Source: an uncultured Brevundimonas sp. (GTDB lineage Bacteria > Pseudomonadota > Alphaproteobacteria > Caulobacterales > Caulobacteraceae). Taken from it: a stretch of DNA of 58,097 nucleotides. The notes below the pieces were generated by a model, which did no database searches, had not been told where the DNA came from, and saw only the letters and a list, made by a program, of their open reading frames with translations. The translations under genes were made by a program, and so were the position numbers. The stretch spans positions 1 through 58,097 of the forward strand of contig CAZUXK010000003.1 of NCBI GenBank assembly GCA_964624025.1. The letters run 5' to 3'. This document shows, in pieces, positions 15,722 through 50,609 of this stretch; position 1 is the stretch's first letter; each line of letters starts with the position of its first letter.

Positions 15722-15811
15722 GGACAGGTGGCCGAGTGGTTGAAGGCGCACGCCTGGAACGCGTGTATAGGCGAAAGCCTATCGAGGGTTCGAATCCCTC
15801 TCTGTCCGCCA
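15722..15811 (+). tRNA. tRNA-Ser(GGA)
   Basis: Acceptor GGACAGG/TCTGTCC, anticodon arm CACGC-CT-GGA-AC-GCGTG, long variable arm, GGTTCGAATCC T-arm, G73 plus encoded CCA. Confidence 0.98.
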
Positions 15812-15991
15812 CCCCGCTTGAACTAAAACAATCGCTTAGGTGCCGTTTGCCAAGTGTGCCGTGCGGCGCACCCGCCGCGCGTCGAAGTTTCCCCCTTCAA
15901 GTGACATCGGCACACCGTGGCGCACTCCCGGCACAGTGTTGCGCCGCTTAAACAACCGTGCGTTCAATGGCAGATCAGGGGGGCGGCAATC

Positions 15992-16780
15992 ATGTGGCTG
16001 TTGGTTTATATTCCGGCGCTTGCCGGGATTTGGCGGTATCGCTTTTGGGGATTCTGGAAGTGGGTCGTCGCGATGTTTCTTTTGCAATCGGTTGCCGACT
16101 TTCTCTTCGCTGCGGGTGGCACCCTCGACCAGCCCCAAGGGGATGGGCTGATTACCGGGATGGTGCGTCGGGCAACCGACGACGGTGCTGAAGTCGCCTT
16201 GCTGGGCGTGGGCTTCTGGATCGTCTTCCTGATCGGCGTGGTCCTCATTGTCAGCCAGATGCGAAAAGCCGCGCGGCAACCGCCAGCGCACGCCGAAGTA
16301 GCCAGCAACGTGCCACTGCTGAGACGCACTGCGGAGACTGGCGGTCTGACCCTTGCGATAGCTGCGCTGATGTTCGTTTCGCTCTCGGCGATGATGTCGG
16401 AGAAGCCCTTGGCAGCGACGCAAGACGCTTACACGCTCGAACAAGAAGTCGCCGACGCAGCAGTGGAAATCGGCCGAACCGTGCCCCAGCAGATCGACCC
16501 TTCGACCAAGCTGGTCGGCGTTCGCTCGGCTGGCCGCGTCCTGATCTACGACTACGAGCTTTCGGAACGTGGCACGCCCGAACAGATGCGCGACTTCTTC
16601 GCGAAGAACTCGCTGGCGCGGGTTTGTGCGGATGCGGTGATGCGCCCAGAGATGCGGCGCGGCGTGACGTTCCGCTACTCCTACATGCTGATCGGGCAGG
16701 AGGCACCGGTCGAGATCGACGTGTCTGAGCCGGTCTGCGCCGCAACGGTTGGGGACCGCAGTGGCGGCACGCAACAGTAG
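15992..16780 (+). CDS. Membrane protein with a C-terminal pilotin-like (GspS/AspS2-type) domain
   Basis: Several hydrophobic helices, then P..ID..T.L...LIY.Y...VC...R.GVT..YSY...C; domain call is by eye. Confidence 0.55.
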   Translation: MWLLVYIPALAGIWRYRFWGFWKWVVAMFLLQSVADFLFAAGGTLDQPQGDGLITGMVRRATDDGAEVALLGVGFWIVFLIGVVLIVSQMRKAARQPPAHAEVASNVPLLRRTAETGGLTLAIAALMFVSLSAMMSEKPLAATQDAYTLEQEVADAAVEIGRTVPQQIDPSTKLVGVRSAGRVLIYDYELSERGTPEQMRDFFAKNSLARVCADAVMRPEMRRGVTFRYSYMLIGQEAPVEIDVSEPVCAATVGDRSGGTQQ

Positions 16781-17297
16781 CGCAGCGGGACCGCAGATCA
16801 CGCCAATCAGCGGCCTCGTCGATGACGCGGCCGACTACTTCAAGTCCGTGGTAATTCCTGCGGTCGAACTGGCATGCGCTCACCCTGCCTCGAAGTCCGT
16901 TGCCCTCTCCGCTTTCATCCTTCTTCACCACACTAAGGACTGGGCAAGGCATGAAGGTCTGATCACGTCGGAGGCCGACCTGTGGGCACATTGTCCCTAC
17001 GCCAATGTCATCGCGGAGATCGCGAACGGCGGGAAGCACCGGGTTGTCGGAGACAAGCATTTGGTAGCTGATCCAATGGTGGTGGAATTCCGGCTGTGCC
17101 GTTTCGGAGAAGGCGGCTACGGGGTCGGACCTTACGGCGTTGAAAATATCCAAGTGAAAGGCCGCAAGCTCGCGTCCGAAAAGCCGACGTGGCGATCTGT
17201 GCGAGCAGTCCTTCAGGAAGCTGTCGGCTGGTGGAAAACGACGCTCGATGAAGGCGCGGCTTCCAAGATTCAGGTTTCGCCCGGCGCATCACCCTGA
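16749..17297 (+). CDS. Hypothetical protein, possible HEPN-like fold (start uncertain)
   Basis: Helical ORF with A...LHH..DW and CP....IAEIANGGKH; no ATG start. Confidence 0.5.
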   Translation: MGTAVAARNSSAAGPQITPISGLVDDAADYFKSVVIPAVELACAHPASKSVALSAFILLHHTKDWARHEGLITSEADLWAHCPYANVIAEIANGGKHRVVGDKHLVADPMVVEFRLCRFGEGGYGVGPYGVENIQVKGRKLASEKPTWRSVRAVLQEAVGWWKTTLDEGAASKIQVSPGASP

Positions 17298-17579
17298 GAG
17301 GCTGGGGTGCCAGAACGACGTGAATGACGAAGCGTCTTCAAGTCGCTCAAACCAAATATCGAGCGAGCCGTCTTCCAACCCTGCGAAGCCCACCCATTGG
17401 CCTTTACACATTGCCTCCAGCCAAAGGCAAACGCTCCCGATCCAAGAGCGTTGGCGAGGAGTAGTTAGACGAGGAAATCTGGTTTGAGTGTGAACCCAGT
17501 CCTTCGATCCGATCTCTGTGACCTTCTGTAAGAGCACGAGTCTGTCTTCATCTTCTTCAACGATGATCTGTCTTGTCAT
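17289..17579 (-). CDS. Small hypothetical protein, phage-like
   Basis: 96 aa with ATG start; WL...C.GQW....IWFE..EDA..F..W pattern. Confidence 0.55.
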   Translation of the reverse strand: MTRQIIVEEDEDRLVLLQKVTEIGSKDWVHTQTRFPRLTTPRQRSWIGSVCLWLEAMCKGQWVGFAGLEDGSLDIWFERLEDASSFTSFWHPSLSG

Positions 17580-17685: not shown

Positions 17686-18198
17686 CTATTTGATTGGCGA
17701 AAACTCAGTGGACCACACAGTCCTCCGGTCCTCGGAATTCATGTGCTGTTCCTTCAGCACATAGCTCGCGGCCGTCGCGTGGTCGTCGATGATCCGCAAC
17801 GTGTAGGAGCCGGGAGGCACGATGTCGTTCCACACGCCGCCCCGTTCGCCGGGAAACATGCGATGGAACCGCAACAACCGATTGGTGCCCGGCGGCGTAG
17901 GTGGCACGCGCCACATTGCGTGGGCGTGAACGCTTCTGCGATCCCCTTCGAATGCGAAGAGGGCCAGCGATCTCGCTTCGCTCGGCAGCTTATGAAAGCG
18001 CCGCCCGAGGAGTTCTTCGTCAACCCGCCGATGAAGGCGGCGTAGATCGCCCTGAGCGGCCTCCAGACGGGTGTCTCGGTTCCACGACAGGGTAAGGACG
18101 TGGGTGAAGCGCAATGCCGCACAGAAGCGCGCCTGAGCCTCCTTAAAGGCTACTCGATTTCGCCCAACAAATGATGGCTCTTCGCTAATGTTCGACAT
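17686..18198 (-). CDS. Small HUH endonuclease / rolling-circle Rep-like protein
   Basis: Ordered RCR motifs: I THVLTL, II E....VHAHAMW, III SYVLK (YxxK). Confidence 0.75.
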   Translation of the reverse strand: MSNISEEPSFVGRNRVAFKEAQARFCAALRFTHVLTLSWNRDTRLEAAQGDLRRLHRRVDEELLGRRFHKLPSEARSLALFAFEGDRRSVHAHAMWRVPPTPPGTNRLLRFHRMFPGERGGVWNDIVPPGSYTLRIIDDHATAASYVLKEQHMNSEDRRTVWSTEFSPIK

Positions 18199-18255
18199 CA
18201 CTCATATCCATCTTCTACGATAGCGCACAGACTACTGGGCCGCCATTTGTTTTTG

Positions 18256-18288
18256 TATTTAAGCTAAGCGTCGAGCGGCTGGTAAATA
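18256..18288. promoter_or_regulatory. Back-to-back TAAATA boxes resembling the T4-type late promoter
   Basis: TATTTA at 18256-18261 (minus-strand box facing the HUH gene) and TAAATA at 18283-18288, 4 nt before ATG 18293, with no SD. Confidence 0.5.
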
Positions 18289-18292
18289 TTCG

Positions 18293-18580
18293 ATGAGATA
18301 CATCGAGATCATCCGCGAAGCCATGACAAGTTCTTCGCGAGCCGCAAAGACTATTAGCGACGCGGCAGCACGGAAGGCTGACGCACTTCGCACCTATCAA
18401 GGCAAGCTTCGCGTTGCGAAGGCGGCCGAAGCGAACGCCCGCAGCACCGAAGCGTCGGCGGCACGAACAGACCGTCTGGCCGCCAGCCAGCAAAAGCGAG
18501 CGGACGCTGCCGCCACCTATCAAGCTTCAATTCGCAGGGCCGACGATGCCATCCGTCGCTCGCGGCAACCCGACCGTTAG
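18293..18580 (+). CDS. Small Ala/Arg-rich helical protein with a capsid-targeting-sequence-like N-terminus
   Basis: 95 aa starting MRYIEIIRE-A; leaderless arrangement. Confidence 0.65.
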   Translation: MRYIEIIREAMTSSSRAAKTISDAAARKADALRTYQGKLRVAKAAEANARSTEASAARTDRLAASQQKRADAAATYQASIRRADDAIRRSRQPDR

Positions 18581-18845: not shown

Positions 18846-19304
18846 ATGAAGCGACCGGTCCAGCATGGTGTCGAAGGCACAGATACAGATCGCGTGATGG
18901 CCGCGATGAACGGTCTCGCCGACCACGCCGCGACGTTCGCGGCAATTGAGTCGAGCGTCCGCACGATTGCCGAACTGATGCCCGCGCGCGTGTCATTGCG
19001 GCAGGGCCTCGCCTTCCTATTCGTCGTTCACGCCAACGCTCGGGGCCGCCGAGTGACGATGACAGACGTTCGCCAATCCTTCAGCGAAACGGAACACGGC
19101 TCGGTCAGCGTTGGCCAGTCCATCGCGAAGTCGTTTCAGGTCTTCTTTGAAGCCAGCAAGCAAGAGCCGAACGGCCTGAACTGGGTTCGGCAGGAAGCCG
19201 ACCGTGACGACCGGCGAAAGAAGTATCTGGTCATCACCGCCGAGGGCGCGGAGGTCGCACTGAAGATGGTTGCGCCTCCGCAGATCGAAGGCGACGAAGC
19301 ATGA
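18846..19304 (+). CDS. MarR-like winged-helix protein
   Basis: C-terminal GLNWVRQEAD.DDRRKKYLVIT.EG wing motif; ATGA coupling to the integrase. Confidence 0.8.
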   Translation: MKRPVQHGVEGTDTDRVMAAMNGLADHAATFAAIESSVRTIAELMPARVSLRQGLAFLFVVHANARGRRVTMTDVRQSFSETEHGSVSVGQSIAKSFQVFFEASKQEPNGLNWVRQEADRDDRRKKYLVITAEGAEVALKMVAPPQIEGDEA

Positions 19305-20401
19305 AATCCTTCGCCCTCAAGCCCAAGTCATCGGGCATCCTCTACGTCGAGTTTTACGAAGGAGAGGTTCGGCGACGCATCACCACGGGATCACGAGATA
19401 CGAAGGTCGCACGTCAACGCGCGCGAGAAATCGTTAGCGGAAACGTCGTCACTCCGACCCCCTCCGCACCGTCGAAATCGAGCGGGATGACGATGGGCCA
19501 ACTGCTTGATCTGTGCTGTAAAACTGTCTGGGCACCCCGCAATGTTCGATCACAGCGGACGGTGAAATCCAATGCCAAAATCCTTCGCGAGATGATCGGC
19601 GACGAGCCGGTTTCCGACATGACGTTCACCCGACTGGAGCTTCTTGTTCAGGAGCTTTTCAACCGTGGCTACGCTGCCGGAACAGTTCATCGGAAGATGT
19701 GCGCCGTCAGCAAAGCCCTGAACTATGCCGCGAAGATCACGGGGCCGAACGGTAAACCTGTCTTCCATGGCAAGCCGTCGATGCCGACTGTGGTGACGAA
19801 GAATTCTCGAAGCCGCGTCATCACGGCTGCGGAAGAGAAAGCAATTTTCTCTGCCATCGAAAAGCGAGCGAACAGCGAACCGGCTCGGTCATGGACGCGG
19901 TTCGCGCACTTGATCAGGTTCTTGCTCGATACGGGATGTCGCTTGGGTGAAGCCCTCAATTTGAGCGACGCGCTGATCGAATCCGATGGCGACGCGACCT
20001 TCGTCACCTTCCCGCGATACTCGACGAAGAACGACGAGCCTCGCAAGCTGCCGCTATCGAAAGCTATCGTCGCGAGCTTGCCCTACCTCCGGTCATGCGC
20101 CGTAGGTGAGAAGCTGTTTCCGATGAAGTCGCAGACCGTCTGGTATATGTGGAACTCGATCCGCTCTGACCTTGTGGCAGCGGGTCTTCCAGTTGCCGAT
20201 GTCGTTCTTCACACGATGCGCCACACCTGCCTGACGCGCCTCGCCCGCAGCGGCCTCGTGCCGCTGGAGCGTATCAGCGACTGGGCAGGGCACTCGACTA
20301 TTCAGGTCACGATGGACCACTATCGGCACATGCTGCCCGCCGACAAGCTCTCGACTCTCGCCGTCATTGAGGACATCGCAGCCGCAAATGCCAACCAATA
20401 G
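19301..20401 (+). CDS. Tyrosine recombinase / phage integrase
   Basis: Catalytic R (TGCRLGE), K (TKND), HxxR (HTMRH), H (AGHS) and Y (DHYRH) all intact. Confidence 0.96.
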   Translation: MKSFALKPKSSGILYVEFYEGEVRRRITTGSRDTKVARQRAREIVSGNVVTPTPSAPSKSSGMTMGQLLDLCCKTVWAPRNVRSQRTVKSNAKILREMIGDEPVSDMTFTRLELLVQELFNRGYAAGTVHRKMCAVSKALNYAAKITGPNGKPVFHGKPSMPTVVTKNSRSRVITAAEEKAIFSAIEKRANSEPARSWTRFAHLIRFLLDTGCRLGEALNLSDALIESDGDATFVTFPRYSTKNDEPRKLPLSKAIVASLPYLRSCAVGEKLFPMKSQTVWYMWNSIRSDLVAAGLPVADVVLHTMRHTCLTRLARSGLVPLERISDWAGHSTIQVTMDHYRHMLPADKLSTLAVIEDIAAANANQ

Positions 20402-20504
20402 TGTTGTCCCACTTTGCGAATTATCACACTATTCTTTTTGTCGATACTATAGTGGCCACGCTTGGCACGCTTAATACTGATAACGTATTGTTATTGTTGT
20501 GTTG

Positions 20505-20525
20505 AGTCCCGCTCTGTCCGCCACC
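20505..20525 (+). other. attR (displaced tRNA-Ser 3' end)
   Basis: AGTCCCGCTCTGTCCGCCACC versus AATCCCTCTCTGTCCGCCACC in the tRNA. Confidence 0.88.
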
Positions 20526-20692: not shown

Positions 20693-20874
20693 TTTCCCTG
20701 CTAACAGGGAAAACATCAGGGAATTTTGGCGGAAAGCGAAGCCCGCCCAGCGCAGGCATCGGCGCGAAATGCCCACGCTGCCTGCATTTGCGGCGCGCGG
20801 TCGAGTTCCGCCGGCTGCAGGAAGCAGGGAATTTTTCGCGCCCGATCAGGGAAGCGTCGGCGGATTTCAGGGAA
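20693..20874. repeat. CAGGGAA repeat array downstream of the serine recombinase
   Basis: Palindrome TTTCCCTG-CTAA-CAGGGAAA (20693-20712) and direct copies at 20717, 20825, 20847 and 20868. Confidence 0.8.
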
Positions 20875-22465
20875 GCAGAGCCGCCCGCTGATCGTCCCAG
20901 GCCAGGGGGATCGCACGATGGCGCAGGTCCTCCAGACAGAGCCCCGGCTTCTGTCGGCCCTCCAGGAAGGCGAGCTGCACGTCCGGCGCCAGATAGGCCA
21001 GCCGGACGAGGTCGCGCTGATGGGGTGAGGCAGGAGATCGCACGATCATCCCCTCATCTCCGGCGTGGTCGGCCAGGATCGCATGGGCCGCCTTCAGCGC
21101 CTTGATCAGCGCCTGGCTCAGCCGCGCCTGCCTCGGCGCCTCGCCCTGGACCCAGGCGCGCCCACCCCGGAACTGAAGCCGGCGCGGCACGTGGAGCCAG
21201 AGCCTGGCGCCGTCCAGCGACAGGCGCTCGCCGGGCTCAAGCAGACGCGTCAGCCGCTCGATCACCATCGGAACCGACCGCTCCTCTTCGGCCAGGACGC
21301 GGGTCGCCAGCGCGATCTGGACCGCGGCATCGTGCACCTCAACCCGTGTCAGAAGCGTTTGCGGGTCGACGTGGGGGGCAAGGCGATAGAGCACCCCGAT
21401 GACCCACCGCTCGGTCGCGAGGGCCGGCAGGCGGTGGATGGCGCCGGGGCGAGGGTCGCGGGTGCGGCGGATGATGGTGCTGGAGACATAGTACCGGTGA
21501 GGCGCCCCGCTGCGGCCGTAGGCGTGCATCGGGGTCATGGGCACGCCATCGGCGTCGAAGATCTTGCCCTTCAGCGGCAGTAGCGGCGGCGGGGGCGCGA
21601 TGCGGTCCTTACGCTTGCTCGCTGGCCCGCGGCGGGCCCGGGTCGCCAGCTGCGCCTGGACCCGACCAAAAGTGGTCTGGTCGATGATCGGCGGATGGTC
21701 GCTGGGATAGGCCTGATCCTTGTGCGGGACCATGCCGAGGTAGGTCTTGTTGCGCAGCAGATGGTAGAGGGCCCCGTTATCGAAGGGCGTCCCGCCGAAC
21801 ACTGCCCCGGTCGTCGCGGTCCAGCGTTTGGAGACCCGCCCCTCGGCTTTCAGCTCCTGCTTCAGGGCCGGCACCGACTGCAGCTCCAGGAACCGGCGGA
21901 AGATGTGCCGGACCAGCTCGGCCTCCGCCTCGTTGAGCTTCAGCTTGCGGCCGGCGGGATCGTATCCGAGGGGCGGGCATCCCCCCATCCACATGCCCTT
22001 CTTTTTGGAGGCGGCGATCTTGTCGCGGATCCGCTCGCCGGTGACCTCCCGCTCGAACTGCGCGAACGACAGCAGCACATTCAGTGTCAGCCGTCCCATG
22101 GAGGTGGTGGTGTTGAAGGCCTGGGTCACCGACACGAACGAGACGCTGTGCCGATCAAACACCTCCACGATCCGGGCGAAGTCGCTCAGCGCCCGGGTCA
22201 GGCGATCGACCTTGTAGACCACCACCACATCGACCTTGCCGGCCGCGACGTCGGCCAGCAGCCTCTGGAGCCCTGGCCGCTCCATGGTGCCGCCCGAGAT
22301 CCCGCCGTCATCGTAGGCCGTCGCCAGCGCCGACCACCCCTCCCCCGCTTGGCTCTTCACATAGGCCTCGCAGGCCTCGCGCTGGGCATGGAGCGAGTTG
22401 AAGTCCTGCTCCAGCCCTTCCTCGGAGGACTTGCGGGTGTAGATGGCGCAGCGGAGCCTAGGCAT
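20867..22465 (-). CDS. Large serine recombinase
   Basis: CAIYTRKSS, DDGG.SGG..ERPGL, VYKVDRLTR, LLSFAQFERE, G..PLGYD motifs; 532 aa. Confidence 0.95.
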   Translation of the reverse strand: MPRLRCAIYTRKSSEEGLEQDFNSLHAQREACEAYVKSQAGEGWSALATAYDDGGISGGTMERPGLQRLLADVAAGKVDVVVVYKVDRLTRALSDFARIVEVFDRHSVSFVSVTQAFNTTTSMGRLTLNVLLSFAQFEREVTGERIRDKIAASKKKGMWMGGCPPLGYDPAGRKLKLNEAEAELVRHIFRRFLELQSVPALKQELKAEGRVSKRWTATTGAVFGGTPFDNGALYHLLRNKTYLGMVPHKDQAYPSDHPPIIDQTTFGRVQAQLATRARRGPASKRKDRIAPPPPLLPLKGKIFDADGVPMTPMHAYGRSGAPHRYYVSSTIIRRTRDPRPGAIHRLPALATERWVIGVLYRLAPHVDPQTLLTRVEVHDAAVQIALATRVLAEEERSVPMVIERLTRLLEPGERLSLDGARLWLHVPRRLQFRGGRAWVQGEAPRQARLSQALIKALKAAHAILADHAGDEGMIVRSPASPHQRDLVRLAYLAPDVQLAFLEGRQKPGLCLEDLRHRAIPLAWDDQRAALLP

Positions 22466-22883
22466 CGGCCCCGCTGCGCTTCACAAGACCAAAGAACAGC
22501 GGCCCGCTCCAGGCGCCGCCCGATATGCCCCGGGCGACAGCCGTCAGGCTGCGGTAGGTGCGGCCGTCCCACTCGAACCCCGCCGGGGTGCGCCGGACCG
22601 TGTGCGCCCGGCCCTGCCACTCCCGCGTCAGGATCGTGCCCACGGGGACCTCGAGCGCGCCGCGCCTGGGTGGCTTCTGGTCCTGCAGCTTGCGCATGGC
22701 CTGCGGGCAGAGGCCGCCGAAGGCCTCGGCCTGGATCCGCCAGGCCAGCATCAGCCCCAGAAGCTCGCGCGACCGCAGCCTGGGCTCTGGGCCGCCGTAG
22801 CGGGCGACCCACGCCTGCCTCAGGCCCTGAAGGTCCAGGCGCTCCAGCGCCCGGACCTCCTCGGTGATCGCCGCCCGCGTCAC
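22458..22883 (-). CDS. DUF2924 family protein
   Basis: LAWRIQ..AFGGL, GT.L.REWQG..H.V, SLTAVA..ISG..WSGP.FFGL. Confidence 0.9.
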   Translation of the reverse strand: MTRAAITEEVRALERLDLQGLRQAWVARYGGPEPRLRSRELLGLMLAWRIQAEAFGGLCPQAMRKLQDQKPPRRGALEVPVGTILTREWQGRAHTVRRTPAGFEWDGRTYRSLTAVARGISGGAWSGPLFFGLVKRSGADA

Positions 22884-23233
22884 GTCGTGCCCCGCGCGTT
22901 CGCGTCGGCGATGCGGTAGACCCTGCCGGCGTCGGTTTTGTCCGACGTGATCGTCAGGCCGTGCTTGCGCTTGAGCGCCCCCGCCAGGGCCCCACGGACC
23001 GAGTGCGGCAGCCAGTCAGTCGCCTCGCTCATCTGCGCGACCGTCGCGCCCTCGGGGCGGCGCATCAGCGCCACGATGGTCCCGAGCTTGCCGGCGGGCG
23101 CGCCAGGCGCACCGGCGCTCTTAGGCGGCTTGCTGGCCCCATGATCGCTACGGCTGGCGACCCTGCGCTCGGGGGACTGCATCCCGCTGATCGCGGGACG
23201 GGTGGACTTCGATGCAGGCTTACTCTTGGCCAT
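22880..23233 (-). CDS. DUF3489 family winged-helix protein
   Basis: K...IVAL..RPEGAT......TDW.PHSVRGALAG.LK.K.G...GRVYRI; ATG at 23233 with GAGGAG SD. Confidence 0.88.
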   Translation of the reverse strand: MAKSKPASKSTRPAISGMQSPERRVASRSDHGASKPPKSAGAPGAPAGKLGTIVALMRRPEGATVAQMSEATDWLPHSVRGALAGALKRKHGLTITSDKTDAGRVYRIADANARGTT

Positions 23234-23355
23234 TGGGCCCTCCTCTTGTTTGAGCAGGCCCCGTGGTGGGCCTGCTACCGAGGAAGGCCCGCGAGGGGCG
23301 GGCACGAAGCGACCAATGCTTCGACAGCGGATGAAGTCCAGAGCACTATCGGGTC

Positions 23356-23997
23356 ATGAACGCTGATCACCCCTACCCCTACGAAGACGCCGCAGAACTG
23401 TTTGCCTTCGTCGCCTATCCCAAGGACGAAGCACGTCAGGCCCAAGCTGTGGCGACCTTGCGCCGGCGTTATGCAGCTTGGCTCGTGGATGCGACAGGTG
23501 AAGCAGCTAAGCCTCATCTGAGGGTGACCGACCTGCTCTCTGATGCAGGAAAGGTGGAGGCGTACAGCCGCAAATTGGAGCCGCTGTTGCGGAAGCGCCT
23601 TTTGGCGGGGCACATCGGCCGCGCCTACATCGAAGACGAACTCCAACAGCGTCCGACGAGGCTAACGCACGCCGCTATGGCCGAACGCGAAGGCGTAAAC
23701 GAGCGCGGCCTTCGGCGCCTGCTCAACGAAGCAGCCCCTGCTTTTCAGTTGTGCACGGCCCTGGCTGAAACCTTCCAGCGCGGTCGCCGACAGGCGCACA
23801 GCTCGGGGGGCGAAGAACCGGATATCTTCACCCTCATGCGCGATCCCGGCTTCGTCCCGAGCGTCCTGGGCCTAGCGCACATTCACGAAGCGCTGATCGC
23901 CCGGGTCGTCCAGCTGGAAGCGGTGCGGAGGCGAATGCTCCGACTTGAGGAGTCAAGGGCCATTTTCCGCCAGATGACAGCCCATCACACGGGCTAG
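23356..23997 (+). CDS. Hypothetical protein, possible HTH
   Basis: 213-aa ORF with ATG; LTHAAMAEREGVNERGLRRLL segment is HTH-like. Confidence 0.55.
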   Translation: MNADHPYPYEDAAELFAFVAYPKDEARQAQAVATLRRRYAAWLVDATGEAAKPHLRVTDLLSDAGKVEAYSRKLEPLLRKRLLAGHIGRAYIEDELQQRPTRLTHAAMAEREGVNERGLRRLLNEAAPAFQLCTALAETFQRGRRQAHSSGGEEPDIFTLMRDPGFVPSVLGLAHIHEALIARVVQLEAVRRRMLRLEESRAIFRQMTAHHTG

Positions 23998-24036
23998 TGC
24001 AGTTGGCACCAGCTCCCTTTCGAAGGGAGCTCCACA

Positions 24037-24763
24037 TTGCCACACATCCAACCGCTGAAGATCGAAATGGCGCCGCTCGCCGAACTGACGGTGAGCCCGC
24101 GTCACACTCGCCGAGTGACCCGGCCGCAGCTTCAGCGCGTTAAGCGCAGCATCTCCAAGTTCGGCTTCATTGTTCCGATCCTCATCGACGCTTGCGGTCG
24201 CATCATTGCCGGAGCCGTTCGCGTCGAGGCGGCCAAGGCACTCGGCTACAGCGAGGCCCCGTCCATCCGGCTCGAACACCTGACGCCGGAGCAGGTCGAA
24301 GCCTTCGCCATCGCCGAGAATCGCTTGGTCGAGACCGGCGAATGGGACGACGACATGCTCGCTGTGGTCTTCAAGGACCTCAGCGCGCTGGACCTTGATT
24401 TCGGCCTCGACATCACCGGGTTCACCCTGCCGGAGATCGACCTGAAGATCGCCGGCATCGACCAGGGAGATGACGCGGCCGACGATCCTGACGACCGGGC
24501 CGTCCCGCCGGGGCCCTCTGTAGTCCAGCATGGAGAACTCTGGACCCTCGGCCGGCATCGCCTCATCTGCGGCTCCTGTCTTGAGACAGAGGTTTGGACC
24601 CGGCTGATGGCGGGCGTGGTCGCCGCGATCATCATCGCTGACCTCCCCTACAACTGCGCCATCACAGGGCACGTCAGCTCGACCGGCAAGTTCCGCGAGT
24701 TCGCCATGGCCTCGGGCGAGATGGGCGAGGCCGAGTTCCAGGCCTTCATGCTTCAGGCCTGCC
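24037..24763 (+). pseudogene. ParB-N + N6/N4 DNA methyltransferase, truncated by IS6
   Basis: SI.KFGF..PILID, IAENRL.E..EWD, W.LG.HRL.CG and ADLPYN (DPPY-like) motifs; runs into the IS terminal repeat before the SAM-binding motif. Confidence 0.88.
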
Positions 24764-25578
24764 GGCGCTGTCAGGATAACTGTGCCGGGTTGAGAAGCGC
24801 CCTGCCCTGCTGAAATCAGGCGACAGCGGCTGACCATGCAGCGTCGGCTTCGGCGCGGAAGCGGCGAAGTGTGGGTCTGCTGATCAAATGGCGTTGGATG
24901 TTGAAGGTGTTGTAGATCGCCGCGTGGGTTGTGAGGAATCTCTGGGCTGAGGCTTGGGATTTGAACCGCTGCTGTTGTCGTTCTCGTCGTCGGATCGGCA
25001 GGTGGGAGTTCTCAACGCGGTTGTTCTCCCGGAGCCGGCCCGGCCGGTGCAGATGCCTCAGATTCAGTTGATCGAGAGCGGCTCCGTACGACGCCAGGCC
25101 GTCGGTCGTGATCGTCTGCGGCTCGACCGGCTGGTTGTGGAGGAGGCGCTTCAAGAGCCTGATCGCCGCCTCTGTGTCCCGCCGGCGCTGGACTACAAGG
25201 TCCAGGACCTCACCTTCGTCGTCGACGGCCCGCCACAGATACAACCGCTTGCCGCCGATCCAGCAGACCATCTCGTCCAGATGCCAGCGCGGCGACGGAG
25301 CCGGCCGATGACGCCTCAATCTTTTGGCGATCAGAGGTCCGAACTTGATGGTCCAACACCGGATCGTCTCGTAGCTGACATCGATCCCGCGCTGCGCCAA
25401 CAGCTCCTCGACGTCTCGAAAACTGAGGCTGAATCGAAAGTACAGCCATACGGCGTGGCAGATTACGTCAGCCGGAAATCGGTGACGCTTGAACGAAATC
25501 GGCTTCACGAAACACCATCCCAGACAGCGGCTTATGCCGACTTTGCCGGTGACCTTTTGGCGTTTGCCTGACAGCACC
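24764..25578 (-). mobile_element. IS6-family insertion sequence (815 bp)
   Basis: Imperfect terminal repeats GGCGCTGTCAGGATAAC / GGTGCTGTCAGGCAAAC around a DDE transposase. Confidence 0.92.
24816..25508 (-). CDS. IS6-family transposase, intact
   Basis: FKRHRFP, WHLDE, YLWRAVD.EG, TTDG, NNRVE.SH motifs; GTG at 25508. Confidence 0.95.
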   Translation of the reverse strand: MKPISFKRHRFPADVICHAVWLYFRFSLSFRDVEELLAQRGIDVSYETIRCWTIKFGPLIAKRLRRHRPAPSPRWHLDEMVCWIGGKRLYLWRAVDDEGEVLDLVVQRRRDTEAAIRLLKRLLHNQPVEPQTITTDGLASYGAALDQLNLRHLHRPGRLRENNRVENSHLPIRRRERQQQRFKSQASAQRFLTTHAAIYNTFNIQRHLISRPTLRRFRAEADAAWSAAVA

Positions 25579-25693
25579 CAACGGCGTATTGTCGGTGGGC
25601 TGCCCATGTCTGCAGTTGGCGCCGAGCTGCCCCCTCCCCTCCCAGCTTTGCGCCTAAGCTTCATTCCTCGAAACGCAGCCGCCTGTTCGCTGA

Positions 25694-25704
25694 CTGACAG
25701 CACC
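25694..25704 (-). repeat. Orphan IS6-type terminal repeat
   Basis: CTGACAGCACC, identical to and co-oriented with 25568-25578 and 43958-43968. Confidence 0.75.
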
Positions 25705-44747: not shown

Positions 44748-46091
44748 ATGCTGGATGTTCTCGTTGTCGGGGCAGGCCTCGCCGGCCTGTCTGCCGCCAG
44801 GGCGCTGAAGCGCGCCGGCGCCTCGGTCCGGGTGCTGGAGAGCCGCGACCGGATCGGCGGCCGGGTGCACTCGCAGGGGCTGGACGTTGGCGTCACCCTC
44901 GATCTCGGGGCCCAGTTCATCGGCGACGCCCACGCCCATGTGCTCCACCTCGTCGGGGAAGCCGGGTTGCGGCGCGCGGCCGTGCACCGGTCCGGCGATG
45001 GGCTGCACGCGCGTCCCGGACAGCCGGCGCAGCGGGCGCCCGCCGACGCCTGGCCGCTCGGCTGGCGGGATCGTCTCGACGTCCTGCAGGCCGCCTGGCG
45101 ACTGGATCGGGCGATGAGGCGTCTCGACGGGGCCGCGGCGCCGGCTCTTGATCGCCTCACGGCCGGCGCGTTCCTGCGCCGCCAGACCCTTTTCGAGCCG
45201 GCGGCCGCCCTGCTCGGCGGCTACATCGAGGGCGAGCTGTGCGTCCCGCTCGATGACATCTCCGCCCGTGAAGTCCTCGATCAGGGGCGCGCCGTGGGCG
45301 GGCTCGCCGGCGAGCGCGCGTCGGCCGGCTGGTTTCTGCCCGACGGCGCCGCCGGCCTGGCGGACTGGCTCGCCGGGGGCCTCGCCGATGCGCTGACCCT
45401 GAACGCCCGGGTCACCGCCGTCGTCCCCGGACAGGACCATGTGACCGTCGCCGTCGGCCAGGAGAGCCTCCGCGCCCGCCACGCGATCATCGCCATTCCG
45501 CCACAGCTCTACGGGGCAGCCGGCCTGCTGCCTCACCTGCCGGGGACCTGGAGAGAGGCCCTGGCGGACTGGCGGCCGGGCGCCGTCATCAAGACCCTCC
45601 TCGTGTTCGAGCGTCCCTGGTGGCGGTCCCGCGGTCTTTCCGGCGCGGTGATCGCCCCCGCAGAGGTCTTCTCCGCCGCCGTCGACGCCTCACCCGCTGA
45701 CGACGGGCCGGGCGTGCTGGTGGTGTTCTCGACCGGGAGAGGCGCCCGCACCCTGGGCGCCACGGCAGACGAGGCCGTGCGGATCAACGCGGCGATGGCC
45801 TGGGTCCAGCGACGCTTCGGCGGTGAAACCCCGCCCCTCGTGACGGGCCGATCGATCGACTGGTCCGCGGATGCCCACAGCCTCGGCGGCTACGCCAGCC
45901 GGCGCGGGCCGGGCGGCTGGACCGCCGCGCCCGACCTCTTCCGCCCCGTCCACCGGTTGCACTTCGCCGGCACGGAGACGGCCGGAGCGTGGCGATCCTT
46001 CATGGAAGGCGCGATCCGGTCGGGTCTGCGCGCGGCGCGAGAGGTGCTTGAGGGGCCAGGGCCCGCGCCGGACGGAACGCCGGTACGCTGA
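44748..46091 (+). CDS. Flavin monoamine oxidase family protein
   Basis: VVGAGLAGL.AA, E.RDRIGGR, DLGAQF, HFAGTETA...MEGAIRSG.RAA. Confidence 0.92.
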   Translation: MLDVLVVGAGLAGLSAARALKRAGASVRVLESRDRIGGRVHSQGLDVGVTLDLGAQFIGDAHAHVLHLVGEAGLRRAAVHRSGDGLHARPGQPAQRAPADAWPLGWRDRLDVLQAAWRLDRAMRRLDGAAAPALDRLTAGAFLRRQTLFEPAAALLGGYIEGELCVPLDDISAREVLDQGRAVGGLAGERASAGWFLPDGAAGLADWLAGGLADALTLNARVTAVVPGQDHVTVAVGQESLRARHAIIAIPPQLYGAAGLLPHLPGTWREALADWRPGAVIKTLLVFERPWWRSRGLSGAVIAPAEVFSAAVDASPADDGPGVLVVFSTGRGARTLGATADEAVRINAAMAWVQRRFGGETPPLVTGRSIDWSADAHSLGGYASRRGPGGWTAAPDLFRPVHRLHFAGTETAGAWRSFMEGAIRSGLRAAREVLEGPGPAPDGTPVR

Positions 46092-46199
46092 TGCCGGGGC
46101 GGGTCCGCCCCCCTGCGCCGAAGAGCGATACGCCTGTGATTGCCCCCCCCCGCCTGCCCGCCTTCCCTTCCGGGCGCGGCGGCGGCATGGTGCGCCGGC

Positions 46200-46952
46200 A
46201 TGTTCAGTGACGACGAGGTGGAGCGTTACGCCCGGCATCTGGTGCTGCGCGAGCTCGGCGGGCCCGGCCAGCAGCGGCTGAAGGCGGCGCGCGTGGCCCT
46301 CGTCGGGGCAGGCGGCGTCGGCGCCCCGGCCGCACTTTACCTGGCGGCGGCCGGCGTCGGGACCCTGCGGCTGATCGACGACGATGCGGTCGCCCTGTCC
46401 AACCTGCAGCGCCAGATCCTGTTCGCCACCGCCGACGTGGGCCGGCCCAAGGTCGAGGTCGCCGCCGCGCGGCTGACCGCCCTCAATCCGCACGTCGCGG
46501 TCGAGGCGCGCCCCGTGCGGCTGGACGCCGGCACGGTCGACGATCTGCTGGCCGACGTCGATCTGGTGCTGGACGGCAGCGACAGCTTCGACACCCGCGC
46601 CCTCGTCGGCGACGCCTGCGTGGCGCGCGGCCTGCCGCTGGTGGCGGCGGCGCTCGGCCGCTGGGACGGCCAGGTCGTGCTGCTGCGCGGCCAGCCCTGC
46701 TGGCGCTGCTATGTGCCGGCGCCGCCGCCCGACGCGGAGACCTGCGCCCGCATGGGCGTGGTCGGGGCCCTGGCCGGGGTGATCGGCTCGGCCGCCGCCC
46801 TGCTGGCCGTCCGGGTTCTGGCGGAGGTCGGCGAGGCGCCGGCCGGCGAGATGATGCTGTTCGACGGCCTCGGCTGGCGCGCCCGCACCAGCCGCATCGC
46901 CGCCGATCCGCACTGTCCCGCTTGCGGGACCGGCGGGCTCAGCCGAGGCTGA
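46200..46952 (+). CDS. moeB: HesA/MoeB/ThiF adenylyltransferase
   Basis: ERYARH..L.E.GGPGQ, GAGG.G, SNLQRQ, CWRC and CPAC; ATG at 46200. Confidence 0.85.
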   Translation: MFSDDEVERYARHLVLRELGGPGQQRLKAARVALVGAGGVGAPAALYLAAAGVGTLRLIDDDAVALSNLQRQILFATADVGRPKVEVAAARLTALNPHVAVEARPVRLDAGTVDDLLADVDLVLDGSDSFDTRALVGDACVARGLPLVAAALGRWDGQVVLLRGQPCWRCYVPAPPPDAETCARMGVVGALAGVIGSAAALLAVRVLAEVGEAPAGEMMLFDGLGWRARTSRIAADPHCPACGTGGLSRG

Positions 46953-48024
46953 GCATCAGCCCGGCCTGCGGCGGCGTGCGCCCGTCCAGCAAGTCGCGCC
47001 AGGCCGCGCGGGCGGCGTCCGGCCCCTGCAGATGGCGCACCTCCAGCCGCGCGCCCGCGTCCGCGGCGATCCGGGCGCTGGCCTCCATGGCCCGTCGCAT
47101 CGCCACCCCGGGCCCCCAGTCGGCCTCGCGCTTGGCGAACTGCGCCGGGGCGAAGAAGAAGGCCGGCGCCGCCCCCTTCAGCTCGCCGTGGCGCCGCCCG
47201 GCGTCCCAGTGGGTGGCCCCTACCAGCACATTGGCCACGACCGACGCCCCCAGCCGGTCGTCGACCGCCTGCAGCACGGCGCCAGAGCCGGACATGTCGA
47301 CCAGCACGCTCGGCTCCCCCGCCGGCAGGCCGGCGATGTCCTCATAGGCGACCACCTCGTCGTACAGGCCCAGCGAGCGGGTGAAGTCGAGGTTGCCGGC
47401 CGAGGTCAGGCCGATCACGCGGCGACGCACCTCCGGCTCCCGGGTCAGCATCCACGCCAGCCCGAAGGCGGTCTTGGACGAGGCGCTGGCGATCAGCACC
47501 TGCGCGGCCCCGAAGGCGGCGTTGTCCTCCAGATAGTCCGCCAGCACCCAGGAGGTGGCGAACAGCGGGAACAGCAGGGCCCGCGCGTCGCCCAGCGCCG
47601 CCATCGCCGCCGGCTCGCCCGCCAGCCGGTTGTAGCGATTGTACAGGGCCGGCAGGTCGCGGCGGTGCGCCGCCATGTCCATGAAGCCCGACCCGCTGAT
47701 CTTCCCCGGCTGCAGGGTGACGTGCGAGGCCATGGGGAAGAAGCCATACAGCCGCTCGCCGACGGCGATCTCCGGGCAGGCCGAGGCGGTCACCGTGGCG
47801 AAGCCCCAGACCGGGACCAGGCCCCAGGTCTCATCGACCGGAAAGAAACCCCAGTAACCGAGGCTCTCCCCGGTCACGGCATAGCTGACGTTGTTGGCGG
47901 TCAGGGCGAAGCGATCGATCGACGCCACCACCTCTCCCGGCTGCGGCGGCGTCAGGGGCGCGGTCACGACCCGCGTCTGCTTCAGGTCACGGCGCTGCAC
48001 CTGCAGCTGGACGATGGACGTCAT
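46939..48024 (-). CDS. DUF2855 family protein
   Basis: FALTANN.SYA..G....YW.FFP, PVWGFA, SASSKTA, VG.THW, FFAP. Confidence 0.85.
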   Translation of the reverse strand: MTSIVQLQVQRRDLKQTRVVTAPLTPPQPGEVVASIDRFALTANNVSYAVTGESLGYWGFFPVDETWGLVPVWGFATVTASACPEIAVGERLYGFFPMASHVTLQPGKISGSGFMDMAAHRRDLPALYNRYNRLAGEPAAMAALGDARALLFPLFATSWVLADYLEDNAAFGAAQVLIASASSKTAFGLAWMLTREPEVRRRVIGLTSAGNLDFTRSLGLYDEVVAYEDIAGLPAGEPSVLVDMSGSGAVLQAVDDRLGASVVANVLVGATHWDAGRRHGELKGAAPAFFFAPAQFAKREADWGPGVAMRRAMEASARIAADAGARLEVRHLQGPDAARAAWRDLLDGRTPPQAGLMLSLG

Positions 48025-48146
48025 GAGCGGCTCTCCCCGGCGACGCCCCTCCTCACTAAGCGGCCCCGTCGCGGCAGGGAAGGCGGCGGCGGTGATCGCA
48101 CCCGCACCCCTTGCCGGATGCCCCGCAAAGGCTATAGTCGCCCCAT

Positions 48147-48163
48147 ATAATCATACTAATTTG
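48147..48163. promoter_or_regulatory. Putative FadR/GntR operator
   Basis: ATAATCATACTAATTTG, near-identical to ATTATCATACTATTTG at 54062-54077. Confidence 0.6.
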
Positions 48164-48172
48164 AGGAATGAG

Positions 48173-49807
48173 ATGACCGGACTGACACGCCGCGGCGCCT
48201 TTGGCGGGCTGGGCGCAGGGCTCGGCGCCGGCGCCCTCGCCGCCGCCCTGCCCGTCGCCGCCCGGGCCCAGTCGCGCGACCAGATCGCGCCCTTCGGCCG
48301 GGAATTCGCCCACATGCGCTGGCGCGCCGGGATCGAGAACCAGCGCCGCGCCGACCTCGGCGACGGGACCTTCCTCAATCCGGTGCTGGCCGGCGACCAC
48401 CCGGACCCGACCATCCTGCGCGATGGCGACGACTACTACATGACCCATTCGTCGTTCGAGTCGGTGCCCGGACTGGTCATCTGGCACTCGCGCGACCTGG
48501 TGAACTGGACCCCGGTCACCGCCGCCCTGACCACCAACATCGGCTCGGTCTGGGCCCCCGAGCTGTGCAGGCACGACGGGCGCTACTTCCTCTACATCCC
48601 GGCCCGCACCCCGACCTACCGCTCCAACTATGTGATCTGGGCCGACCGCATCGAGGGCCCGTGGAGCGAGCCGATCGACCTCAACCTGCCGAACCACATC
48701 GACCCGGGCCACATCATCGGCGAGGACGGCAAGCGCTACCTGTTCCTGTCCGGCGGCGACATGGTCCAGCTCAGCGACGACGGCCTGTCGACGGTCGGCG
48801 AGGTGCACCACGTCTACGACCCATGGCGCTACCCGACCGACTGGGTGGTCGAAAGCTTCTCGCCGGAGGGCCCCAGCGTCATCCGCCGCGGCGACTGGTT
48901 CTACATGATCACGGCGGTCGGCGGCACGGCCGGCCCGCCGACCGGCCACATGGTCATCGCCGCCCGCTCACGCTCGGTGTTCGGCCCGTGGGAGGATGCT
49001 CCGGGCAATCCGCTCGTGCGGACCACCGACGCCGCCGAGAAGTGGTGGTCACGCGGTCACGCCAGCCTCGTCGAGGGGCCCGACGGCCGCTGGTGGAGCG
49101 TCTATCACGGCTACGAGAACGCCTACTGGACCCTCGGCCGGCAGACCCTGCTCGACAGCGTCGAATGGACCGAGGACGGCTGGTTCCGCATGACCGGAGG
49201 CGACCTGTCGCGGCCCCTGCCCATGCCGGCCCCGTCACGCCCGGACACGCCGCACGGCCGCGCCCTGTCCGACGACTTCAGCACCGACAGGTTCGGCGTC
49301 CAGTGGAGCTTCTACAACCCCGGTCCCGACAGTCGCGCGCGTCTGTCCCGCGCCAACGGGACCCTGACCATGCAGGCGCTCGGCACGGCCCCGAAGGACT
49401 GCTCGCCGCTCACCTTCACCGTCGGCGACCAGGCCTACCAGGTGGAGTGCGAGATCGAGATCGACCCCGGCGTCACGGCGGGCCTCATCCTGTTCTACGA
49501 CAGCGCCCTCTACTGCGGCCTCGGCTTCGACGAGCGGCGCTTCGTCACCCACCAGTACGGCATCGAGCGCGGCCGGCCGGGCCATTCCCACGGCCGACGC
49601 ATGTTCGTGCGCCTGACCAATGACCGGCACATCGTCACCCTGCACACCAGCGGCGACGGCCGGACCTGGACGAAGTTCGACCGCCAGATGGAAGTGTCGG
49701 GCTACCACCACAATGTCCGCGGCGGCTTCATGATGCTGCGGCCGGGCATCTACGCGGCGGGCGGCGGCGCCGCCCGGTTCCGCAACGTCAGATACCAGGC
49801 GCTGTAG
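48173..49807 (+). CDS. GH43 glycoside hydrolase (xylosidase/arabinosidase), Tat-exported
   Basis: TRRGAF twin-arginine leader; NPVL.GD.PDP, WAP, IDPG, EGP, GHAS motifs; C-terminal beta-sandwich. Confidence 0.92.
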   Translation: MTGLTRRGAFGGLGAGLGAGALAAALPVAARAQSRDQIAPFGREFAHMRWRAGIENQRRADLGDGTFLNPVLAGDHPDPTILRDGDDYYMTHSSFESVPGLVIWHSRDLVNWTPVTAALTTNIGSVWAPELCRHDGRYFLYIPARTPTYRSNYVIWADRIEGPWSEPIDLNLPNHIDPGHIIGEDGKRYLFLSGGDMVQLSDDGLSTVGEVHHVYDPWRYPTDWVVESFSPEGPSVIRRGDWFYMITAVGGTAGPPTGHMVIAARSRSVFGPWEDAPGNPLVRTTDAAEKWWSRGHASLVEGPDGRWWSVYHGYENAYWTLGRQTLLDSVEWTEDGWFRMTGGDLSRPLPMPAPSRPDTPHGRALSDDFSTDRFGVQWSFYNPGPDSRARLSRANGTLTMQALGTAPKDCSPLTFTVGDQAYQVECEIEIDPGVTAGLILFYDSALYCGLGFDERRFVTHQYGIERGRPGHSHGRRMFVRLTNDRHIVTLHTSGDGRTWTKFDRQMEVSGYHHNVRGGFMMLRPGIYAAGGGAARFRNVRYQAL

Positions 49808-50510
49808 CCTCGGCGGCGGCCGGGCGCCCTTCGCGGGCGACCCGGTCGACGCCGCTCTGGATCACCGCGCGCATCGCCGCCGCCGCCCCGGCGGCGTCGC
49901 CGTCAGCAATGCAGTCGACGATGCGTGCGTGCGCCGCCACGGTCTCTGCGTGCAGCTCGGGCCGGTCGACCGGCGGACTGACGGTGAAGGCCTCCATCAG
50001 CGCCGCCTGGATCACCGCCGCCATGGAGCGGATCATCGGATTGCGCGACGCGGCCCCGACCGCGAGGTGCAGTTCCAGGTCCGCCCGCGCGAAGGCGTCC
50101 GGGGAGGCGGTTTCCGTCTGCATATGCTCGAGCGCCGTCCTCATGGCGGCCAGGTCCTCGGGCGTGCGCCGCTCGGCCGCCAGGGCCGCCGCCGTCGGCT
50201 CCAGCGCCAGCCGCACCTCGGCCAGATTGCGACGGAACTCGGCGTCGACCCCCGCCTCAACCCGCCAGGCCAGCACATCGGGATCGAAATAGTTCCACTG
50301 CGCCCGGTCAGCGACCCGGGTGCCCACCCGCGTCTTGGCCACCAGCAGCCCCTTGGCCGACAGGGTCTTGATCGCCTCGCGCAGCGCCGTGCGCGACACC
50401 CCGAACCGTTCGAGCAGCGCCATCTCCGGCGGCAGGTTGGCCCCGACCGGGACCTCGCCGGCGAGGATCTGCAGGCCGAGACTGCGGACAATCTTGTCGT
50501 GGTTCGCCAT
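49788..50510 (-). CDS. FadR/GntR-family regulator (DgoR-like)
   Basis: LP.E..L...FGVSRT.LREA.K.L.AKGL......GT.V; FCD domain. Confidence 0.92.
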   Translation of the reverse strand: MANHDKIVRSLGLQILAGEVPVGANLPPEMALLERFGVSRTALREAIKTLSAKGLLVAKTRVGTRVADRAQWNYFDPDVLAWRVEAGVDAEFRRNLAEVRLALEPTAAALAAERRTPEDLAAMRTALEHMQTETASPDAFARADLELHLAVGAASRNPMIRSMAAVIQAALMEAFTVSPPVDRPELHAETVAAHARIVDCIADGDAAGAAAAMRAVIQSGVDRVAREGRPAAAEATAPGI

Positions 50511-50581
50511 GCCCCAGTGATGAACGCGGACAGGCGGCGCGGCAAGGCGTCAACAGTCTCGTCACGCGCCTCGAAAAGAGC

Positions 50582-50609
50582 GGGCAGGACATCAGTCGAC
50601 GTCCTGCCC
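50582..50609. terminator. Hairpin after the TonB receptor
   Basis: GGGCAGGAC-N10-GTCCTGCCC; no clear U-tract. Confidence 0.45.

What the first reader, a model, noticed from the sequence alone, without database searches (positions are those of the whole stretch)
18293..18580. Small basic helical protein with a capsid-targeting-sequence-like leader (MRYIEIIRE|A)
Seen: N-terminus MRYIEIIRE followed by an Ala/Arg-rich, internally repetitive helix (RKADALRTYQ and KRADAAATYQ). Known: T4 internal proteins carry a ~10-aa capsid targeting sequence (MKTYQEFIAE type) that the prohead protease cleaves after I/L-x-E. Inference: the element may load its own protein into helper proheads, to interfere with or resize the head, or to be co-injected into the next cell.
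Basis: inference. Interest (0 to 1): 0.75.

Follow-up and report, generated by a model that had tools for sequence, protein, structure and literature searches.

The report
Island protein stowing in jumbo-phage heads
A 4.7-kb mobile element in a Caulobacter-family bacterium carries a small protein that begins with the same short tag as many particle proteins of giant T4-like phages and sits behind a phage-style promoter motif, so the element likely switches on during infection and likely loads its own protein into the phage head, which would be a way of parasitising a phage that my literature searches did not find described.

Summary
The ORF is real: 95 aa, pI 11, predicted helical hairpin, inside a 4.7-kb tRNA-Ser-integrated element with a tyrosine integrase and an HUH Rep-fold gene. 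The leader is not chance. All 53 homologues (31-92% identical) keep its 6-residue core, it is unique among 6,387 host ORFs, and 20 of 22 Atu_ph07 jumbo-phage ORFs with this leader map to that phage's published virion proteome (baseline about 18%). New: TAAATA lies 4 nt before the ATG. This is the spacing in uncultured 400-600-kb T4-like phages (gp21-type protease, gp55-like sigma), not the host's -10 spacing. The hexamer occurs 9 times in the host genome, twice in this element, and precedes the Rep-like gene in 6 of 8 related elements. Best reading: a satellite of RaK2/Atu_ph07-like jumbo phages, turned on by the phage late sigma, whose protein is packaged like an internal protein, cleaved after Glu9 and injected. 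Packaging, cleavage, the helper's identity and the mature domain's role (DNA escort versus head poisoning) are untested. This scan noted a similar module in another genome (e1-9839157, unchecked).

The parts
18293..18580 (+). 95-aa basic helical-hairpin protein with a capsid-targeting-like leader (the finding)
18293..18319 (+). 9-residue leader MRYIEIIRE; predicted gp21-type cut after Ile7-Arg8-Glu9
   Evidence: 53/53 keep the 6-residue core, 46/53 have Glu at position 8-10; T4 rules from PMC9026906 passages
18283..18288 (+). TAAATA late-promoter-like hexamer 4 nt before the ATG (predicted leaderless mRNA)
18256..18261 (-). second, divergent TAAATA, 54 nt upstream of the Rep-like gene
17686..18201 (-). 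HUH (rolling-circle Rep-fold) endonuclease, 171 aa; invariant T37, H92-x-H94, Y147-xx-K150
   Evidence: weak PF23343 hit of the L006 homologue
18846..19304 (+). putative winged-helix regulator
   Evidence: weak PHROG transcription-regulator hit, E 0.0014
19301..20401 (+). tyrosine integrase
   Evidence: PF00589 E 5e-16; phrog_1
15792..15813 (+). attL (3' end of tRNA-Ser)
   Evidence: 22-nt direct repeat
20504..20525 (+). attR
   Evidence: related copies in four other runs diverge exactly behind 20524
15722..15811 (+). tRNA-Ser(GGA), the integration site
15917..17579 (.). variable cargo: predicted membrane protein (15917-16780+), 16749-17297+, 17289-17579-
   Evidence: no significant Pfam, PHROG or PADLOC hits; replaced by 1,316 other letters in run X6

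Best explanation
The gene lies in a 4.7-kb tRNA-integrated element that is likely a satellite of a RaK2/Atu_ph07-like T4-type jumbo phage: the phage's late sigma factor would transcribe it from the TAAATA motif, and its leader would load the protein into the helper prohead. The gp21-type protease would then cut after Glu9 and free an 86-residue basic hairpin inside the head, which would be injected into the next cell. The same promoter type would switch on the HUH Rep, which would amplify the excised element by rolling circle so that the helper packages it. The freed hairpin most likely acts for the element's DNA (binding, escorting or shielding it on entry), as T4 internal proteins act for T4 DNA. 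Shown: element boundaries and mobility, HUH fold, leader conservation, virion association of the same leader in Atu_ph07, promoter motif and its spacing. Inferred: transcription by the phage sigma (about 0.8), packaging and cleavage (about 0.8), transduction of the element (about 0.65), escort role of the mature domain (about 0.45).
For: Leader: core kept in 53/53 homologues at 31-92% identity while residues 10-14 drop to 13-19% modal identity; Arg2 uses AGA, CGC, CGA, CGT and CGG codons, so selection is on the peptide; 1 of 6,387 host ORFs carries it, this gene. Phage side: 57 distinct IMG/VR ORFs start with MRYxEIIxE; 4 of 5 such large contigs encode a gp21-type protease and 2 of 3 a homologue of Atu_ph07 gp694, that phage's gp55 counterpart; 20 of 22 leader-bearing Atu_ph07 ORFs map to virion Table S5 of PMC6102473, against 131 of 714 overall. 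Promoter: TAAATA-N3-6-ATG occurs 53, 90 and 64 times against 0, 7 and 13 reversed controls in three jumbo contigs, one carrying the identical TAAATATTCGATG; the leader follows it in 12 of 74 such ORFs versus 2 of 828 others; phage spacing puts the T at -11/-10 (64 cases, 6 at -12), the window's is -10, and host leaderless starts peak at -12. It stands 4-5 nt before the gene in 5 of 10 loci, at the head of the operon in 3 more, with one mismatch in a ninth, and before the Rep-like gene in 6 of 8 loci. ATAAATA is the predicted late promoter of jumbo phage CBB (PMC5259590, passages).
Against: No helper phage is identified: the hosts of the three IMG/VR contigs are unknown, and no Caulobacteraceae phage is among the 40 best gp21 hits. 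The TAAATA-ATG layout is not enriched in Atu_ph07 (39 vs 56 control) or Cr30 (2 vs 9), and the PA5oct transcriptome paper does not contain the motif, so the promoter's function rests on prediction. L008 has the gene with no TAAATA, even with one mismatch, within 700 nt. 7 of 53 members lack the predicted cleavage Glu. A weak sigma-70-like site (9/12) lies at 18192-18221. Virion MS does not show location inside the head or cleavage, and 8 of the 14 hits from gp57 on are paralogues (7 of 9 groups after collapsing). The mature domain has no informative structural match.
Confidence: 0.55

Rival explanations
1. Head poison or decoy: the protein is made late and enters the prohead through the leader, but its job is to lower the helper's yield (compete for core-binding sites or the protease, or spoil ejection). 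The module then acts mainly as anti-jumbo-phage interference.
For: The same promoter and leader evidence. Related elements carry defence cargo: Eco29kI plus Dcm plus Vsr in L131, a C5 methylase in L008, an HNH protein in L125. Satellites commonly reduce helper yield (PMC12772148, part 1 read).
Against: No PADLOC match. A Rep-like gene lies next to it in 8 of 10 loci under the same promoter type, which suits a function in transmission. T4 heads tolerate 20-200 foreign CTS fusions per particle (PMC9026906).
Confidence: 0.25
2. Protease-triggered switch: the leader is a substrate for the phage prohead protease, and its removal activates the hairpin in the infected cell (for example to regulate Rep or excision); packaging is incidental.
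For: Ile-x-Glu is kept in most members; the protein is basic and is encoded divergently from Rep in the window.
Against: The residues matching T4's targeting positions (Tyr3, Glu5, Ile6) are better conserved than the cleavage Glu, and 7 of 53 lack the Glu while keeping the core.
Confidence: 0.1
3. Captured phage gene with vestigial signals, or an ordinary host-transcribed leaderless gene whose start resembles the phage tag by chance.
For: A host -10 consensus GCTANAWC (recalled, not from a call) resembles GCTAAATA in L006 and L131; weak sigma-70-like site upstream.
Against: No homologue in IMG/VR. The signals persist at about 35% identity and with two unrelated Rep-like genes. The spacing is that of the phage, not the host, and no TAAATA lies between -22 and -6 of 1,938 host candidate starts.
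Confidence: 0.1

Closest known systems
T4 internal proteins IPI/IPII/IPIII and their capsid targeting sequence (PMC9026906, PMC3012670; passages read)
   Same: Short M-[KR]-aromatic-x-E-hydrophobic...-E leader on a small basic protein; predicted gp21 cut after I/L-x-E; mature part unrelated to other carriers of the tag
   Different: Encoded by a bacterial chromosomal element, not a phage; leader 8-9 residues, matching the RaK2/Atu_ph07-group form rather than T4's 10; mature domain is a predicted helical hairpin with no viral homologue found
Leader-bearing virion proteins of Agrobacterium jumbo phage Atu_ph07 (e.g. gp487, gp548, gp57-63; PMC6102473 Table S5)
   Same: Near-identical leader (gp487 starts MRYIELCE); 20 of 22 such ORFs are in the virion list
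   Different: They mostly follow Shine-Dalgarno sites rather than TAAATA; the sections I read do not describe the leader; phage-encoded
I55-type jumbo-phage satellites of Pseudomonas (PMC12595487 passages; PMC12772148 part 1)
   Same: Integrase-bearing island with defence cargo that depends on a jumbo phage
   Different: I55 family: 20-70 kb, next to tmRNA, no recognisable replication genes. Here: 4.7 kb, tRNA-Ser, HUH Rep, phage-type promoter motifs and a capsid-tagged protein; helper dependence is inferred only
PICMI, PICI, PLE and P4 satellites (PICMI features recalled; the others as summarised in PMC12772148)
   Same: Small integrated element with integrase, a replication gene and variable cargo, presumed helper-induced
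   Different: No AlpA, primase-helicase, terminase or capsid-size protein detected; replication by an HUH enzyme; induction apparently by direct use of the helper's late sigma
T7 islands (Chen and Schneider 2006; recalled, seen only through citing papers in a listing; fetch failed)
   Same: tRNA-integrated island carrying promoters of a lytic phage's own transcription machinery
   Different: T7 RNA polymerase promoters in enterobacteria; I recall no capsid-tagged protein there

Membership tests
T4-type capsid-targeted internal protein | N-terminal propeptide with conserved targeting residues (T4 positions 4 and 7) | tested here: met
   Tyr3/Ile6 align with T4 Tyr4/Phe7 after a one-residue shift; core in 53/53
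T4-type capsid-targeted internal protein | gp21 site I/L-x-E ending the propeptide | tested here: met
   Ile7-Arg8-Glu9 in the window; Glu at position 8-10 in 46/53
T4-type capsid-targeted internal protein | Late expression from a gp55-type promoter | tested here: inconclusive
   Motif, spacing and conservation fit; no transcript data
T4-type capsid-targeted internal protein | Physically packaged, cleaved and injected | not testable with these tools
   Indirect only: the same leader marks Atu_ph07 virion proteins
T4-type capsid-targeted internal protein | Encoded by the phage | tested here: not met
   No homologue in IMG/VR; found only in Caulobacteraceae islands among genomes searched
Phage satellite (general) | Integrase, att repeats and mobility | tested here: met
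   different right flanks behind attR in other runs
Phage satellite (general) | Own replication gene and no virion structural genes | tested here: met
   HUH Rep fold; no structural hits
Phage satellite (general) | Helper-induced excision, replication and packaging | not testable with these tools
   Only contigs were available; no circular junction was listed, which cannot show absence
PICI / PICMI | AlpA-type regulator and primase/helicase replicon (recalled definition) | tested here: not met
   No such Pfam or PHROG hit on any element ORF
I55-type jumbo-phage satellite | tmRNA-adjacent, 20-70 kb, no replication genes | tested here: not met
   tRNA-Ser, 4.7 kb, HUH Rep against PMC12772148

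The most novel reading that the evidence does not exclude
A new family of minimal rolling-circle satellites of T4-like jumbo phages that need no inducer of their own. They borrow the helper's late sigma factor to switch on Rep, and counterfeit the helper's capsid-targeting tag to place their own protein in the head and deliver it, with their DNA, to the next cell.
Probability: 0.5. Interest if true: 0.92.

Novelty: new variant of a known kind. Interest (0 to 1): 0.82.

Why it matters
Known satellites hijack capsid size, terminase or tails. None of my ten literature searches (open-access PMC and bioRxiv only) returned a bacterial element that uses a phage capsid-targeting tag or a gp55-type promoter. 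If true, this adds protein stowaway delivery and direct late-sigma sensing to the satellite repertoire and extends satellites to T4-like jumbo phages of alphaproteobacteria. It also defines an 8-9-residue packaging tag for RaK2/Atu_ph07-like phages that marks unannotated head proteins and can be tested at once with cultured relatives. The tag plus TAAATA gives a search signature for further island genes aimed at these phages.

Tried and rejected
Pfam, PHROG and PADLOC: no hit for the target. ESM Atlas: only sub-0.8 hits to unnamed viral clusters, a lead at best; the Atlas gave no answer for the Rep. Foldseek against BFVD: no match at E<=0.001, generic coiled coils. IMG/VR scans for homologues: none; longer or fused forms: none among 7,996 candidates, weak evidence. 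Complex prediction Rep + target: no answer, score 0.00, which is no evidence either way. Sequencing runs: no RNA holder listed; no circular junction listed in 7 distinct runs of contigs. Caulobacter phage Cr30 as helper: rejected, no whole-genome match to the leader pattern, no TAAATA-ATG enrichment; it has a T4-type 10-residue leader gene instead. TIGR02937 was the wrong probe for a gp55-like sigma. The class-wide pattern scan (61 of 381 genomes) was too loose; hits fell largely in small genomes and I did not use it. The family-wide scan gave 7 hits in 381 genomes, 4 of them this protein family, against 4 control hits. No shared non-coding origin was found between elements by blastn. Internal-Met start: rejected. 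Host sigma -10 reading of TAAATA: disfavoured by spacing. Dropped loci: L128 (fragment), L129 (same as L125), L132 and L005 (weak hits with stops).

Full report
Observation. The ORF at 18293-18580(+) encodes 95 aa beginning MRYIEIIRE|A; pI 11.06, net +10, 25 Ala and 16 Arg. AlphaFold2 on a 20-sequence alignment gives a helical hairpin, H3-50 and H56-91, pLDDT 85.5. The two quoted 10-mers are no better than chance (172 of 500 shuffles), but an 18-residue window at the same offset is (3 of 500). The alternative start at Met11 is unlikely: the 92%-identical P0001 lacks it and only 5 of 53 members have a Met in residues 8-16.

The element. GC falls from about 72% to 58% downstream of tRNA-Ser(GGA) at 15722-15811. 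A 22-nt direct repeat at 15792-15813 and 20504-20525 bounds 4.7 kb. It holds a tyrosine integrase, a weak winged-helix gene, three unannotated cargo ORFs, the target, and a divergent 171-aa gene. That gene has invariant T37, H92-x-H94 and Y147-xx-K150 in six homologues, and its model (pLDDT 81.5) best matches SIRV1 ORF119 (E 6e-4) and the wheat dwarf virus Rep domain (E 7e-3), with weaker hits to other Reps among unrelated folds: an HUH Rep fold. Related copies in four other runs cover the element and diverge exactly behind 20524, into three different flanks; in run X6 the cargo is replaced. The element is therefore mobile. Relatives are labelled Caulobacteraceae or Phenylobacterium.

The family. 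Searches gave 53 sequences, 31-92% identical to the query. It was found in 9 of 401 genomes of the family and in none of 400 other genomes of the class, and not in IMG/VR. The 6-residue core M-[RK]-[YFLWA]-x-[EQD]-[ILF] is in 53/53 (two with a Val start codon) and a Glu at position 8-10 in 46/53, while residues 10-14 are 13-19% conserved. Arg2 is encoded by five different codons in ten loci. A similar pattern matches 1 of 6,387 host ORFs of 80 aa or more, this gene. T4 IPII and IPIII begin MKTYQEFIAE; PMC9026906 (passages) places targeting at residues 4 and 7 and processing at 8 and 10, which align with Tyr3, Ile6, Ile7 and Glu9 here.

Who uses this leader. An IMG/VR scan for MRYxEIIxE returned 102 stretches; after removing Ser-codon matches, ORFs under 40 aa and duplicates, 57 ORFs with diverse downstream sequences remained, several per contig in 290-415-kb genomes. 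Four of five large contigs tested encode a gp21-type protease, whose nearest cultured relatives are Phosso, PA5oct, Atu_ph07, SCTP-2 and CBB. Two of three encode a homologue of Atu_ph07 gp694, listed as that phage's gp55 counterpart. I mapped Table S5 of PMC6102473 (abstract, section 29 and supplement rows read) onto the genome by molecular weight and order: 120 of 122 rows from gp57 on were placed. Of 16 leader-bearing ORFs in that part, 14 are virion proteins (Fisher p 3e-9, not corrected for paralogy; 7 of 9 groups after collapsing paralogues). The pattern was written after I saw, with residue classes taken from the family. The six leader ORFs below 45 kb were a held-out check: all six masses match table rows gp43, 47, 53, 54, 55 and 56. 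In total 20 of 22, against 131 of 714 proteins overall. MS on these virions does not show location inside the head or cleavage.

The promoter. TAAATA lies at 18283-18288, 4 nt before the ATG, with no Shine-Dalgarno. The hexamer occurs 9 times in the 2.55-Mb genome (about 13 expected from composition), twice in this intergenic gap; only 2 of 31,952 ATG-started frames have it 3-12 nt upstream. In the IMG/VR set 22 of 57 leader ORFs have it, 20 at spacing 4-5. TAAATA-N3-6-ATG occurs 53, 90 and 64 times in G799, G802 and G803 against 0, 7 and 13 reversed controls, but is not enriched in Atu_ph07 (39 vs 56) or Cr30 (2 vs 9). In 400 kb sampled from those three contigs (regions chosen for holding motif matches) the leader follows the motif in 12 of 74 ORFs versus 2 of 828 others. 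Spacing separates it from the host -10 box: host starts have TA at -12 (115 against 18-38 at neighbouring positions), phage TAAATA starts at -11/-10 (64 against 6 at -12), and the window's is at -10. PMC5259590 (passages) predicts ATAAATA as the late promoter of CBB; PMC7318152 (passages) does not contain it for PA5oct. Of 10 distinct loci with the full gene, 5 have TAAATA 4-5 nt upstream, 3 at the head of an operon about 470 nt upstream, 1 a one-mismatch copy at -11, and L008 none. Six loci carry the same HUH family nearby and two a second Rep-like type with HUH-like motifs that does not match the first profile; TAAATA precedes the Rep-like gene in 6 of these 8. Integrases or resolvases and restriction-type cargo surround them.

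Mechanism. Two independent phage signals, promoter and leader, on one island gene, plus the same promoter on Rep, are best explained by a satellite tuned to a RaK2/Atu_ph07-like jumbo phage. Inferred sequence of events: the late sigma transcribes rep and the target; Rep amplifies the excised element; the helper's headful terminase packages it (an analogy to T4 from my own knowledge); the target enters proheads by its leader, is cut after Glu9 and is injected. I favour an escort or shielding role for the basic 86-residue hairpin (0.45) over head poisoning (0.25), a protease-triggered switch (0.1) or vestigial signals (0.1); nothing here tests the mature domain. Against the model: no helper is identified, there are no transcript data, no circular form was listed, 7 of 53 lack the cleavage Glu, L008 lacks the promoter, and a weak sigma-70-like site lies upstream.

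Comparison and novelty. It works like a T4 internal protein but is not phage-encoded. It works like a satellite but fails the defining features of PICI/PICMI (recalled) and of I55-type elements (PMC12772148 part 1 of 2 read; PMC12595487 passages). T7 islands are a recalled precedent for phage promoters in islands. Ten searches of open-access text found no description of this combination; subscription papers and bioRxiv supplements were not searched. An unchecked note of this scan (e1-9839157) describes a similar module in another genome; I had reached the promoter and Rep reading before seeing it (notes), and it is not independent proof. Verdict: a real feature, a new variant of a known kind (phage satellite) with an apparently undescribed component; interest 0.82.

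Noticed in passing
G000:C37:13671-13929 (L115:8672-8930, +): The only other host ATG with TAAATA just upstream (4 nt): an 82-aa ORF starting MRIDEVTHP at the edge of a lower-GC island next to tRNA-Thr; the identical TAAATACGAGATG occurs in jumbo contig G802. No Pfam, PADLOC or IMG/VR hit. Possibly a second phage-triggered island gene.
   Followed up: partly
L007:7131-7379, L125:6521 on, L126:4623-4877, L127 minus strand from 2721: A second small conserved gene (about 80 aa...SMRSWSEQWAGR..NFA..) behind TAAATA in four related elements but absent from the window's element; no Pfam hit.
   Followed up: partly
L131:6976-7884(+) and L133:6501-7442(-): A second Rep-like family (about 300 aa, CxxxxCxxC plus HUH-like motifs, 32% identical to each other) stands beside the same tagged gene, which suggests the gene moves between replicon types.
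   Followed up: partly
Atu_ph07 (W01), e.g. ORF starts 45663-50592, 353336, 392813: An 8-9-residue M[KR][WYFL]x[EQD][IL]..E leader marks 20 unannotated virion proteins and could serve as an annotation rule for head proteins in this phage group.
   Followed up: yes
G799, G802, G803 (IMG/VR jumbo contigs): 53-90 apparently leaderless TAAATA-ATG genes per genome, many with a second leader type (M.MR..I.L.E), a gene-expression style not seen in the sampled cultured relatives.
   Followed up: partly
window 20867-25703: Directly behind attR lies a second island: large serine recombinase (20867-22465-), small ORFs, a ParB/methylase-like ORF interrupted by an IS6-like transposase (24816-25703-; labels from sequence appearance, not from a call).
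   Followed up: no
L131:8412-10712; L008:4496-6690; L125:5047-5589: Related elements carry restriction-type cargo: Eco29kI, C5 methylase and Vsr; a C5 methylase with an unknown partner; an HNH protein.
   Followed up: partly
Cr30 (L010:28335, -): A 106-aa hypothetical protein of Caulobacter phage Cr30 starts with a T4-type 10-residue leader (MKTFKQFFNE), a candidate internal protein.
   Followed up: no
proteins P0001, P0002, P0004, P0029: Their longest contigs are 5.0-6.1 kb, about the size of the element, which might reflect free copies; not verifiable here.
   Followed up: no
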